Shown: positions 4,022-44,610 of the stretch, piece after piece
Layout of the letters: every line of letters begins with the position of its first letter
Position numbering within the stretch: the first letter of the stretch is position 1
Notes under the pieces: generated by a model
The model's database searches: none
What the model saw: the letters and a program-made list of their open reading frames with translations, nothing else
Told to the model about the DNA's origin: nothing
Translations under genes and position numbers: made by a program
Origin: an uncultured Parachlamydiaceae bacterium
GTDB taxonomy: Bacteria > Chlamydiota > Chlamydiia > Chlamydiales > Parachlamydiaceae
Direction: 5' to 3'
DNA length: 64,000 nucleotides
Assembly (NCBI GenBank): GCA_963752155.1
Contig: CAVVXH010000006.1
Coordinates: forward strand, 192,001-256,000

Positions 4022-5470
4022 ATGAACAGCTTTACGATTCTTGCCTTTTTTTCCTATTTTTTAATTCTCCTTTTTATTGGCTTATCCTCCTATCATAAAC
4101 AAAAGTCTTCAGCTGATTTCATTGTAGGCAATCGATCTTTAAATTTTTGGGTCATCGCCCTATCTGCACACGCCAGCGATATGAGCTCATGGCTATTCAT
4201 GGCATTTCCGGCTGCATTCTATATCCGAGGACTTTCTCAGATCTGGATGGCTATAGGTCTTCTCCTTGGAATGTGGTTAACTTGGCAATTTGTCGCAAAA
4301 AGACTGCGTACTTCAACGGAAAATTACGATAGCTATACTCTTCCTACTTTTTTCTCAAGACGCTTCCAAGACGCCTCCGGAGTTATCCGCACTGTCACCG
4401 CCTTTATGTCGGTCATCTTCCTGACAAGCTACTTAGCTGCAGGCTTAATGAGCATGGGGCTGCTTCTTGAATCCATTTTTGGCATCGATTACTACGTTGG
4501 ATTATCCGTGGCCTTAACAGTCGTTTTGATTTATACATTTGTAGGAGGGTTTACTACTGTCGCCTGGACAGATCTCTTCCAAGCCCTTTTCTTGTTGTTA
4601 GTTCTATTGGTTGTTCCTTACTTCGCCTTTATCACACTTCCGAATGGTTTAGGAAGCATACAAGCAGATGCTTTGACAAAAAACATCGAAATGTCATTCC
4701 TAGACTTCTCAGCTGAGGGATCTATACTGACGGTCCTATTTTTGGTCTTTGGGTGGGGGCTCGGCTATTTTGGTCAACCTCATATAGTTACAAAATTTAT
4801 GGGAATACGAAATACAGAAGAACTCACAAAGTCAAAGTATGTGGGCATGACTTGGATGATCGTTACTCTTGGAGCTGCAGCATTCGTTGGATTAGTTGGC
4901 ATATCGTATTTTCCTGAAACCCTGGATAAACCTGAACTTGTCTTTGTAGAAATGGTCAAGAGCTTATTTCACCCCTTCTTGGCAGGCATTTTCCTCTGCG
5001 GAATCATTTCTGCAACAATGTCGACAATGGATTCACAGATTTTAGTTGCTGCTTCAGTACTTAGTGAAGATTTTTACATGCAATTCAAGAAGAAAAAAAT
5101 TTCGGAAAGGCACCACCTTACCATTACTCGAGCAGCTGTGGTGTTAATATCTATAGCTTCGCTTTTGATATCCTTTAATCGCAGCACTACCATTATGGAT
5201 GCAGTTTACTATGCATGGACGGGTTTGGGATGCTCTTTTGGCCCCTTAATGCTCATGTCGCTCTACTTCGGCAAAGCTAATAAATACGGAGCTATTGCTG
5301 GCATTATTGTTGGGGGCACTATTGCTGCATTCTGGCACACCATTAATCCATATCTTTTCGCTACGACAATTCCGGCGATGATTCCGGGTTTTGCTTTTAG
5401 TGCACTAGCCATCTACCTAACTTCAATTCTAACACAGAATATAACAAAATCGACTGATGCGGAATACTAA
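4022..5470 (+). CDS. putP: sodium/proline symporter
   Basis: ALSAHASDMSSWLFMAFP, GGFTTVAWTDLFQ, WGLGYFGQPHI, MSTMDSQILV; multi-TM protein; ATG at 4022 after AAGGAA. Confidence 0.93.
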   Translation: MNSFTILAFFSYFLILLFIGLSSYHKQKSSADFIVGNRSLNFWVIALSAHASDMSSWLFMAFPAAFYIRGLSQIWMAIGLLLGMWLTWQFVAKRLRTSTENYDSYTLPTFFSRRFQDASGVIRTVTAFMSVIFLTSYLAAGLMSMGLLLESIFGIDYYVGLSVALTVVLIYTFVGGFTTVAWTDLFQALFLLLVLLVVPYFAFITLPNGLGSIQADALTKNIEMSFLDFSAEGSILTVLFLVFGWGLGYFGQPHIVTKFMGIRNTEELTKSKYVGMTWMIVTLGAAAFVGLVGISYFPETLDKPELVFVEMVKSLFHPFLAGIFLCGIISATMSTMDSQILVAASVLSEDFYMQFKKKKISERHHLTITRAAVVLISIASLLISFNRSTTIMDAVYYAWTGLGCSFGPLMLMSLYFGKANKYGAIAGIIVGGTIAAFWHTINPYLFATTIPAMIPGFAFSALAIYLTSILTQNITKSTDAEY

Positions 5471-5828
5471 GAAAAATTAAATTCCTAAATAACAAGTTCG
5501 CGCCTTGCCATTGGTGCCTGACCTGATATTCTGACATTTGCCAATGCGATAACATTGCTTCCTAAAGGGCAAATGTCAGAATGTCAGGTCTGGAACCAAG
5601 GCTGGAACGTTACCCCCAAGATTTACGCAACTGAAAAAAGCGTCGTTTTCAATTAATAACAAGATACTAAATTCTGAGAGGTAACGTTTAGCCTCGGTTC
5701 CAGACCTGACATTCTGACATTTGCCCTCCTGGGAGGTTACGTTATCACTGTAGGCAAATGTCAGAATATCAGGTCAGGCACCAATGGCAAGGCGCGAACT
5801 TGTTATTTGCGTTTAATTTTTCCTATAC
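5464..5828. mobile_element. Palindromic element family A, copy 1 (non-autonomous MITE/REPIN-like)
   Basis: Perfect 56-bp inverted repeat 5487-5542/5753-5808; four alternating copies of GACCTGAYATTCTGACATTTGCC; near-identical copies at 24.5, 31.0 and 44.1 kb. Confidence 0.9.
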
Positions 5829-5975
5829 TTAACCTCATTGTATCTTTATTCTAAACAATGTTTACTATTGACCATATTTTATTTACATGATATATTCTGT
5901 TGAGCAAGTCGTAAAAAAAAATCCCAAAATTCATTTTTTGCGCATAATACAAATTCGTTAAATAAAGGTTTCTAT

Positions 5976-43032: not shown

Positions 43033-44115
43033 ATGTATTTAAAATCACTCTATCTCTATAACTTTCGGTTATACCAAGAAGCGGTTTTTGATTTCTGCCC
43101 GCATCTCAATATGATCTGTGGGCCTAATGCAGCTGGCAAAACATCGCTCATCGAAGCTATTTGTTTTCTAGCTGCCGGTCATTCTTTTCGTTCACATCAG
43201 ACAGCTCACCTCATTAGAAATGGGTCTTCATACTTCTATCTCGAAGCGATCTTTGTAAAACATGGAATCGAACAACGCCTTAAAATTACACACAGCCATA
43301 AAGAACGCAAAATATTTATTAATAACACAAGTTATTCTACAACCTCCAGCCTTGTTGGACTTCTCCTCACCGTGGTTTTTTCTCCGGCCGATATCGATCT
43401 CATAAAAGGAGGGCCACAAGGTCGAAGACAGTACCTAGATGAACAGCTGGCTCAGGCGGATCCTCTTTATCACTACCATTGTAATCGCTATGCACGGGCC
43501 ATGCGTCAAAGAAATTGCCTTTTAAAAGCAAAAAATTTCAATTCAATTCACAGTTGGGAATATGAAATGGCGGTATCAGCCGCTTATCTCGTACAAAAAC
43601 GTCTGGAGTTGCTTGAAGAGCTTCAAAAACACGCAAAGCTCTTTTATGAACAGATTGCTGAGGCAGACGAAGCTTTATCATTGGCATATCGTTCAGCATC
43701 CGGAAAAATAAGCAACGATCAATCCGCGTTACGAATACATTTTCTTGAACAATATGAAAAAAATAGAGAACGAGAGGTCTTCTTTGCTAGTACACTTGTG
43801 GGACCTCACAAAGACGAATTGACCGTTTCAATTGGAGAAAATGAAGCCCGCTATTTTGCAAGCGAGGGGCAAATGCGCTCCTGCGCAGCAGCACTGCGTT
43901 TAGCAGAATGGAAGCGTCTAGAAACCTTTACAGGAGAAAAACCGTTAATGTTACTAGATGATATTTCAACAAGCTTAGATCAAAAGCGTACTGAACATTT
44001 GTTTCGATTGTTAGATTCTCTGGGACAACTGTTTTTAACAGGCACAGAGGAACCTATTTGCTATCCTGACAATATTGAACGTAAAATGATTTCATTACCT
44101 AATTCAATCTTATAA
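43033..44115 (+). CDS. recF: DNA replication/repair protein RecF
   Basis: GPNAAGKTS, GPHKDEL, ASEGQ, LLDD. Confidence 0.96.
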   Translation: MYLKSLYLYNFRLYQEAVFDFCPHLNMICGPNAAGKTSLIEAICFLAAGHSFRSHQTAHLIRNGSSYFYLEAIFVKHGIEQRLKITHSHKERKIFINNTSYSTTSSLVGLLLTVVFSPADIDLIKGGPQGRRQYLDEQLAQADPLYHYHCNRYARAMRQRNCLLKAKNFNSIHSWEYEMAVSAAYLVQKRLELLEELQKHAKLFYEQIAEADEALSLAYRSASGKISNDQSALRIHFLEQYEKNREREVFFASTLVGPHKDELTVSIGENEARYFASEGQMRSCAAALRLAEWKRLETFTGEKPLMLLDDISTSLDQKRTEHLFRLLDSLGQLFLTGTEEPICYPDNIERKMISLPNSIL

Positions 44116-44131
44116 AAAAGGACGATATTAG

Positions 44132-44610
44132 AAGCGAGACAAGTTGCCTGCGGCGCGCCCTATCAGAGAATAACAAATGTTTAAAGCGCCTTGCCATTGG
44201 TGCCTGACCTGATATTCTGACATTTGCCGATGCAATAACATTGCTTCCTAAAGGGCAAATGTCAGAATGTCAGGTCTGGAACCAAGGCCAGAACATTACC
44301 CCCAAGAGGACAGCAAGGACAACAGGAAACGCGGAACAAATCGGTCAATAGAAATTTTTAATATCATTAAGGATGCTTGTTTGCTTGCTGTCCTTGCCGT
44401 CCTTGCTGTCCTCTGAGAGGTAACGTTCTGGCCTTGGTTCCAGACCTGACATTCTGATATTTGCCCTCCCGGGAGGTTATGTCATCATTTTAGGCAAATA
44501 TCAGAATATCAGGTCAGGCACCAATGGCAAGGCGCTTTAAAATTTTGTTATTTCCCAATAGGGGCACCGCAGACAACTGTCTCGCTTTGTGTTTAATTTT
44601 TCCTATACTT
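44132..44610. mobile_element. Palindromic element family A, copy 4; centre replaced by a family E array
   Basis: Same four-armed core; segment between CCCCCAAG and CTGAGAGG (44307-44412) is an AAGGAC/GTCCTT inverted array. Confidence 0.9.

What the first reader, a model, noticed from the sequence alone, without database searches (positions are those of the whole stretch)
5464..44610. Modular 'Russian-doll' palindromic element (family A): four copies with combinatorial flanks and interchangeable cargo
Seen: copies at 5464-5828, 24459-24908, 30972-31454 (inverted) and 44132-44610 share a core. It has four alternately oriented 23-mers (GACCTGAYATTCTGACATTTGCC; copy 1 at 5520, 5568, 5703, 5753), so it can fold as one long hairpin or as two. 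Each side carries flank X (AAATAACAAGTTCGCGCC) or flank Y (AAGCGAGACAGTTGCCTGCGGCGCCCC...TAAAGCGCC). The copies are X/X, X/Y, Y/X and Y/Y. An outer TIR (GTATAGGAAAAATTAAAC) is complete on both sides only in copy 3. Copies 2, 3 and 4 each carry a different additional palindromic module. Known: MITEs, REPINs and BIMEs are non-autonomous and mobilised in trans. Inference: this is an actively spreading composite element whose arms are shuffled or converted. I do not recognise it as a described family; it is the best candidate for a new system here.
Basis: partly seen in the sequence, partly recalled or inferred. Interest (0 to 1): 0.85.

Follow-up and report, generated by a model that had tools for sequence, protein, structure and literature searches.

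The report
Bridge-recombinase mini-element carrying hairpin cargo
These nested palindromes are a stack of several unrelated selfish repeats: the bare ends of an RNA-guided jumping gene (IS110 family) enclose hairpins built from another transposase's end-repeats, and the package was likely copied by the RNA-guided enzyme into the arms of a third repeat dozens of times in an environmental chlamydia.

Summary
The four copies are real, but they are a stack of separate repeat families, not one new element. Flanks Y and X are the left and right ends of an IS110 (bridge-RNA) insertion sequence: complete elements with these ends, the recombinase and a structured leader RNA occur in three metagenome contigs and a same-family genome, and a 7-nt guide in that RNA equals the element's own left target in 5 of 7 cases. 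The four 23-mers are end-repeats of a TIRYT (Y1 subclass 2.1) transposase whose single gene on C10 lies between the same doublets. The 'outer TIR' is the arm of a GxxExxY-associated palindrome, the wrapper's target. Genome-wide there are 42 Y..X and 17 Y..Y copies; the AG core and left target are fixed, the right flank varies, and cargo orientation is fixed (21 of 26). Copies 2 and 3 are one configuration inverted; X/X and Y/Y are derivatives. No IS110 gene was found in this 80%-complete genome, and no reads were available. Closest precedent: MITEPpu9. The scan noted the TIRYT, GxxExxY and nesting layers before on other DNA of this genome; one word search found no IS110 note. New variant of a known kind.

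The parts
31009..31370 (+). Copy 3: complete IS110 mini-element (wrapper plus cargo), 362 bp, between AG cores at 31007-31008 and 31371-31372
31009..31048 (+). Copy 3 flank Y = IS110 left end up to the 8-bp sub-terminal inverted repeat (31041-31048)
   Evidence: aligns with the left ends of IS110 elements L092, L099, L100, L102
31360..31370 (+). Copy 3 flank X = IS110 right end (sub-terminal repeat plus 3 nt)
   Evidence: identical to the right ends of L092, L099, L100, L102
31062..31351 (+). Copy 3 cargo: doublet of TIRYT end-repeat hairpins (23-mers at 31079, 31129, 31264, 31312; loops 31102-31128 and 31287-31311; spacer about 31166-31251)
   Evidence: same hairpins flank the Y1 gene at C10:596682-597707; similar TIRs flank related genes
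30960..31008 (+).
   Evidence: K elements stand alone and flank GxxExxY genes; empty targets exist
31373..31456 (+). Copy 3 right target: GTAG-footed hairpin (31373-31416) then the opposite K arm and flank
   Evidence: three such loci in the genome, each beside a wrapper end or core; related hairpins alone in G005 and G052
24459..24899 (-). Copy 2: complete IS110 mini-element, 441 bp, between cores at 24900-24901 and 24457-24458; left end 24860-24899, right end 24459-24469; inserted in the 5' arm of a second GxxExxY cassette type
   Evidence: 4 empty copies of this target
24588..24662 (.). Copy 2: 75-bp MITE 'P' inserted in the core spacer, flanked by TTA (24585-24587) and TAA (24663-24665)
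   Evidence: 13 stand-alone copies, 11 with an exact 3-bp TWA duplication; 15 copies at this one spacer site, 13 with exact duplication
5484..5808 (-). Copy 1: degenerate X/X derivative; core doublet about 5500-5792, right end 5484-5494, partial right-end copy 5793-5808
   Evidence: X/X is 2 of 93 core units
5440..5483 (+). Copy 1 left flank: K-type outer flank and truncated K arm; supplies the last codons and the stop of the putP-like ORF 3995-5470
5809..5830 (+). Copy 1 right K arm
44135..44584 (.). Copy 4: Y/Y derivative (left end on both sides, AG cores at 44133-44134 and 44585-44586) around an older core variant
44307..44414 (.). Copy 4: 'S' palindrome with 9-mer arms replacing the central spacer
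   Evidence: 4 cores carry it and it stands alone at C6:313188; similar arms flank a four-helix-bundle gene at C1:43174
44585..44637 (+). Copy 4 right K arm and outer flank

Best explanation
The element is a non-autonomous IS110-family mini-element whose two ends (Y = left, about 40 nt; X = right, 11 nt) enclose a doublet of TIRYT end-repeat hairpins, and it was likely copied as one unit by an IS110 recombinase and bridge RNA supplied in trans. Shown: identity of the ends, the AG core at both junctions, the empty targets, the origin of the cargo. Inferred order: (1) an IS110 lost everything between its sub-terminal repeats; (2) a hairpin doublet of the resident TIRYT family entered it once; (3) the package would excise as a circle joined at AG and insert where the 7 nt ending in AG match the guide, which are mostly the arms of GxxExxY-associated 'K' palindromes; (4) a TWA-duplicating MITE (P) and the S palindrome entered the spacer once each and were then copied along; (5) Y/Y and X/X forms likely arose by one arm being copied over the other, or by recombination between two insertions in opposite K arms, and would no longer be IS110 donors.
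For: Ends: 3 of 11 metagenome loci with the Y motif hold Y, a 434-465 aa ORF and X within 1.67-1.77 kb; the two ORFs scanned are IS110 (PF01548 + PF02371; L092 NF033542 271.5 bits, cut-off 140); same-family genome G063 has an 82% identical gene between the same ends. Leader RNA: consensus fold with 10 of 52 pairs showing double changes; a 7-nt segment equals the element's own left target plus core in 5 of 7 elements, five different sequences; a second segment equals the right end plus core in all 7. In G000: AG at 98 of 99 left ends and A/G at 91/85 of 95 right ends; 71 of 99 left flanks are one of two 9-mers, whereas the five positions after the right core carry 0.12-0.44 bits; the 42 Y..X copies have many different right flanks, four with unique DNA on both sides and only a 7-9 nt left match; 80 empty K-type targets of six tested forms. 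Unit copying: 21 of 26 Y..X doublets have the same cargo orientation; 15 cores carry P at one site. The wrapper also holds other cargo: K elements in G000, 48-428 nt of unrelated DNA elsewhere. Cargo origin. Precedent: MITEPpu9 (PMC12288879, Discussion part 1 and passages).
Against: No IS110 gene or leader RNA was found in G000 (genome 80% complete), nor a close relative in the two same-genus genomes at E <= 1e-60, so present activity is not shown. Guide and target disagree in 2 of 7 elements (L080 one mismatch, L094 no match). Many copies share both flanks (for example about nine in one K subtype), which could be copies of a larger unit rather than separate insertions. 17 Y..Y copies need a second process. 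No empty orthologous site in another genome was examined, and no reads were listed. Guide assignment was by eye from alignments; no right-target guide could be matched.
Confidence: 0.8

Rival explanations
1. The resident TIRYT (HUH Y1) transposase moves the whole composite as a REPIN-like single-stranded hairpin, and the IS110 ends are passengers picked up once.
For: The TIRYT gene is intact and present in G000 between the same doublets whereas no IS110 gene was found; unwrapped single hairpins and doublets exist (11+ 'oo' units; a subfamily with its own flanks); hairpins occur in both same-genus genomes.
Against: Boundaries of wrapped copies fall exactly at the AG cores with variable DNA beyond the right core; the wrapper moves without the core; the doublets beside the TIRYT gene have different loops and spacer and no X or Y. 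It probably does explain the unwrapped hairpins.
Confidence: 0.12
2. One insertion into a K palindrome was spread by whatever spreads K elements (a GxxExxY nuclease with repair, or gene conversion between K arms).
For: Most left flanks continue into a long K arm, and groups of copies share both flanks; GxxExxY genes with such arms are in the genome.
Against: At least four copies lie in unique DNA with only a 7-9 nt match, and others in S-type and G-type arms; right flanks differ from the first base after AG. It may account for part of the copy number.
Confidence: 0.05
3. The module combinations are misassemblies of palindromes.
For: Contig C7 has a 27-kb fold-back at 96.6% identity; several contigs end in these repeats; no reads could be laid.
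Against: Y/Y copies are asymmetric inside (two different loops, oriented spacer) and often outside, unlike fold-backs; flanks are unique; X..Y wrappers and doublets recur in independent genomes.
Confidence: 0.03

Closest known systems
MITEPpu9 / ISPpu9 of Pseudomonas putida (PMC12288879; Discussion part 1 and passages read)
   Same: Non-autonomous IS110 derivative made of the two IS ends around unrelated cargo, invariant AG at both ends, inserted in palindromic intergenic repeats, proposed to move with the recombinase in trans.
   Different: 8 copies carrying an sRNA gene, partner present; here about 60 copies carrying another transposase's hairpins or K palindromes, target is a GxxExxY-associated arm rather than a REP, an 8-bp sub-terminal repeat marks the cargo boundary, and no partner gene was found in the assembly.
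IS621 and bridge RNAs (Durrant et al. 2024, PMC11208160, passages read); half-match recombination (bioRxiv 10.64898/2026.08.31.748434, abstract only)
   Same: DEDD recombinase, structured non-coding left end with segments matching target and donor, core dinucleotide, insertion into dispersed palindromes.
   Different: AG-reading core with only a left-target match evident; guide order in the loops appears right-then-left (by eye, untested).
TIRYT / TIRtron and TIR repeats (Di Nocera et al. 2013, PMC3733652, section 16 and passages); TnpA-Y1 subclass 2.1 (Quentin et al. 2018, PMC6006769, sections 6, 11, 12 and part 1 of 15); RAYT Group 1 (Bertels et al. 2017, PMC5581495, passages)
   Same: Y1 protein with NHIH, FQ, YIHLNP and a DnaA-C-like tail; flanked by long inverted repeats that also form dimers and double palindromes elsewhere in the genome.
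   Different: Much higher copy number than the Group 1 average quoted (12 flanking 16-mer occurrences); the GGGGWSAS motif has drifted in G000; about three quarters of the outer hairpin arms (161 of 219) sit inside the IS110 wrapper.
BIMEs and REPINs (as described in the papers above; otherwise recalled)
   Same: Alternately oriented palindromic units with linkers, intergenic, targets for IS110 elements.
   Different: Units are not GTAG-footed REPs; the mosaic joins at least four unrelated families.

Membership tests
Non-autonomous IS110 element (MITEPpu9-like) | Ends homologous to the ends of an autonomous IS110 | tested here: met
Non-autonomous IS110 element (MITEPpu9-like) | Invariant core dinucleotide at both junctions; removing element plus one core gives an existing target | tested here: met
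   (5 of 6 K/S-type target forms found empty; the S-type form not)
Non-autonomous IS110 element (MITEPpu9-like) | Lacks recombinase and bridge RNA | tested here: met
   similarity stops just inside the sub-terminal repeat
Non-autonomous IS110 element (MITEPpu9-like) | Cognate autonomous element in the same genome | tested here: not met
   none in G000, which is 80% complete; present in G063 of the same family
Non-autonomous IS110 element (MITEPpu9-like) | Circular intermediate and transposition in trans | not testable with these tools
   no runs listed
IS110 bridge-RNA system (parent element) | Structured ncRNA in a non-coding end with segments matching target and donor | tested here: met
   left target 5 of 7 exact, donor segment 7 of 7; computational only, right-target guide not matched
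TIRYT TIR repeats (core) | Y1 subclass 2.1 protein: HuH, Y..NP, W/FQ, C-terminal HTH | tested here: met
TIRYT TIR repeats (core) | Gene flanked by the repeat; homologs flanked by similar TIRs | tested here: met
   8 of 29 homolog loci within 8 of 29 mismatches on one side, 5 on both, no shuffle below 10
TIRYT TIR repeats (core) | GGGGWSAS motif in the TIR | tested here: inconclusive
   present in relatives' TIRs, degenerate at the same position in G000; the paper gives it for some TIRs only
TIRYT TIR repeats (core) | Cleavage or mobilisation by the protein | not testable with these tools
   no experiment
Canonical REP/REPIN with RAYT groups 2 or 3 | GT(A/G)G foot on a short hairpin and a subclass 2.2/2.4/2.5 protein | tested here: not met
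   core sequence and protein motifs
   the repeat bounds stand-alone K elements and is missing from many wrapped copies
   not examined
DDE-type MITE (module P) | TIRs plus fixed-length TSD | tested here: met
   3-bp TWA in 11 of 13 stand-alone copies; also in G027
DDE-type MITE (module P) | Cognate transposase with the same TIRs | tested here: not met
   none found in G000 or in six loci of G023, G027 and G083; IS5-type origin is recalled from the TWA duplication only

The most novel reading that the evidence does not exclude
A chlamydial clade of IS110 bridge recombinases has guides naturally reprogrammed to the 9-mer arms of small nuclease cassettes, reads only the left half of its target, and has spawned a minimal 40 + 11 nt donor that acts as a general shuttle: it picks up other selfish palindromes, amplifies them far beyond what their own enzymes achieve, and re-enters repeats that it once carried, which is how the Russian-doll repeats of these genomes are built.
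Probability: 0.5. Interest if true: 0.75.

Novelty: new variant of a known kind. Interest (0 to 1): 0.6.

Why it matters
It gives a concrete, testable route by which mosaic bacterial repeats form and multiply: hitch-hiking of one repeat family inside the ends of an RNA-guided IS aimed at another family. The roughly 40 natural insertions form a ready-made specificity data set (fixed left 7 nt, free right side) for a bridge recombinase clade, alongside five natural guide-target pairs, and they define a minimal donor. It also warns that high copy number of a repeat beside a Y1 transposase need not mean that this transposase made the copies.

Tried and rejected
Rfam: no match in the window at gathering thresholds. 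Plasmid collection: no match to copy 3. The search for related loci with the TIRYT protein found nothing; the genome search did. Sequencing runs: none was listed, so no read test; no RNA holder listed. IS110 in G000: none by PF02371, PF01548, tblastn or protein search. TIRYT in same-genus G001 and G002: no match at E <= 1e-20; their four Y1 loci carry no core motif, so these genomes hold hairpins without a partner found. Exact Y motif across the order: 3 of 201 genomes, so the wrapper is patchy. Transposase for P: not found. Reconstructed empty sites at four unique insertions restored no long frame (0-73 aa). Arm conversion in Y/Y copies: weak (3.08 versus 3.84 differences, 12 pairs), stronger (10 ungapped pairs against 89 arms, p = 0.0018 for distance, 0.034 for shared alleles; the pool includes old copies, which inflates this); double insertion with recombination is not excluded. 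The first A/B arm classification was too lenient and was redone. What the X ends enclose in G001, G002, G019 and G024 (loci) was not read. Literature: searches (listings and abstract starts) showed no description of this element, of repeats tied to GxxExxY genes, or of such repeats in Chlamydiota; ISfinder could not be consulted, and supplements of the cited papers were not opened (Di Nocera Fig. 9 sequences and additional files may bear on the TIR comparison).
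Full report
Observation. The window is G000:C6:192001-256000 of a 3.13-Mb, 80%-complete genome; titles of public contigs sharing the Y motif point to environmental Chlamydiota, several Parachlamydiaceae. 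BLAST with the four copies gives 328 merged loci; the 23-mer has 402 matches in 144 clusters. None of 93 complete core units lies inside an ORF of 100 aa or more; 25 of 90 lie between convergent genes against 204 of 1294 background gaps. The modules are distributed independently among relatives: the hairpin in the two same-genus genomes, Y in other genera. That pointed to separate families.

The core. G000 has two Y1 genes. One, 341 aa at C10:596682-597707, has core doublets on both sides. Its motifs NHIH, FQ, YIHLNP and a DnaA-C-like tail place it in subclass 2.1 of Quentin et al. (PMC6006769, Table 1 and subclass text), which those authors equate with the TIRYTs of Di Nocera et al. (PMC3733652, section 16), whose TIRs can form dimers and double palindromes. 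Homologs occur in 21 of 121 genomes including G000; 8 of 29 homolog loci carry a TIR within 8 mismatches of the 29-nt G000 unit, 5 on both sides, with no shuffle below 10, and L020 has them head to head as hairpins on both sides. So each hairpin is two TIRYT end-repeats around a short loop, and the core is a doublet of these.

The outer repeat and extra modules. K-type arms flank GxxExxY genes at C6:157328 and C4:110655. The 9-mer arms of the copy-4 module resemble those around a four-helix-bundle gene; this module replaces the spacer in 4 cores and stands alone once. The copy-2 module P is a MITE with a 3-bp TWA duplication (11 of 13 stand-alone copies) that sits at one spacer site in 15 cores; copy 2 has TTA on one side and TAA on the other, which extends the palindrome and suggests arm copying (inference). 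The copy-3 module lies outside X, in the target.

Flanks X and Y. In G000 X and Y also enclose K elements without any core. In other genomes they enclose 54-428 nt of unrelated DNA (5 of 14 loci, read). In 3 of 11 metagenome loci they enclose a 434-465 aa ORF preceded by about 200 non-coding nt; three more are mini forms of 48-121 nt. The two ORFs scanned are IS110 recombinases. Related genes occur in 13 of 73 same-family genomes; G063 holds an 82% identical one between the same two ends. Alignments show that Y is the left end and X the right end, similarity stopping just inside an 8-bp sub-terminal inverted repeat. The leader folds with covariation (10 of 52 pairs) and contains a 7-nt segment equal to the element's own left target plus AG core in 5 of 7 elements, each a different sequence, and a segment equal to the right end plus core in all 7. 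This is what Durrant et al. describe for left target and left donor guides (PMC11208160, passages). Two leaders (L094, L080/L102) carry the two 7-mers that dominate G000 insertion sites. I could not match a right-target guide.

How it spread. AG is present at 98 of 99 left ends and at about 85 of 95 right ends; left flanks are nearly fixed and right flanks nearly free. The 42 Y..X copies (40 with core) sit in several K subtypes, in S- and G-type arms and, in four cases, in unique DNA with a 7-9 nt left match; one of these lies in a tandem repeat whose neighbouring unit is the empty form. Eighty empty K-type targets remain. Cargo orientation is fixed in 21 of 26 doublets, and 24 plain wrapped doublets differ by a median of 3.8%. 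The simplest account is one capture of the doublet followed by repeated IS110-type insertion. One-sided targeting recalls half-match recombination reported for IS621 (bioRxiv 10.64898/2026.08.31.748434, abstract), though that term refers to donor-loop recognition and may not be the same thing. Y/Y (17) and X/X (2 of 93) cannot be ordinary donors; paired Y arms are somewhat more alike than random arms, which favours arm copying but does not exclude recombination between two opposite insertions.

Against. No IS110 gene or leader was found in G000; activity today is unshown; groups of copies sharing both flanks may have spread by another route; no reads and no orthologous empty sites were seen; what the X ends enclose in same-genus genomes was not read. 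The TIRYT likely accounts for the unwrapped hairpins.

Known versus new. Every layer has a described kind: IS110 MITE with cargo and AG core inserted in palindromes (MITEPpu9, PMC12288879), TIRYT repeats, TWA MITEs, BIME-like mosaics. It works like MITEPpu9 and meets the sequence tests, but fails the test of a partner in the same assembly, so I file it as a variant rather than a plain member. Not found in eight paper searches or in one all-words search of the scan's notes: an IS110 mini-element carrying another transposase's hairpins, aimed at GxxExxY-associated arms, at about 60 copies. Verdict: real, explained, new variant of a known kind; interest 0.6.

Noticed in passing
window 51805-52119: Inverted arrays of a 9-mer around a short core; the same arrays flank GxxExxY genes and fragments at about eight other places.
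   Followed up: partly
window 13874-14080, 60509-60650, 62573-62662: Stand-alone S-type palindromes with 9-mer arms, the family whose arms flank a four-helix-bundle gene at C1:43174.
   Followed up: partly
window 20694-24272 (+): 1192-aa ORF with a below-cut-off match (105 of 300 bits, residues 273-582) to the XopAJ/AvrRxo1 zeta-toxin family; looks like a secreted effector.
   Followed up: no
window 5440-5470: The element's flank supplies the last ten codons and the stop of the putP-like gene.
   Followed up: partly
window 48738-51602 (-) and 58722-64000 (+): A protein with 213-bp tandem repeats, and three tandem paralogs of about 2.06-2.18 kb.
   Followed up: no
L014 (G000:C11:40743-41348) and 980-1300: Second Y1 gene (201 aa, NF047646 over cut-off) with its own upstream repeats, unrelated to the core.
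   Followed up: no
G000:C7:1-27231: 27-kb inverted repeat at 96.6% identity starting at the contig end; possible fold-back artefact. It duplicates some counted copies.
   Followed up: no
G000:C1:75091-77356 and five or six other places: 2266-bp element at over 99% identity in six copies, with a serine-recombinase-like ORF and a 507-aa TnpB-like ORF; IS607-like by recalled features.
   Followed up: no
L078:2501-2520 and L091:2501-2520: The inner 20 nt of the IS110 left end also occur in an Opitutaceae genome and a similar metagenome contig, with a different outer part and leader.
   Followed up: no
L037 and L040 (G036:C20): TIRYT genes preceded by tandem units of about 226 bp, each holding a TIR hairpin.
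   Followed up: no
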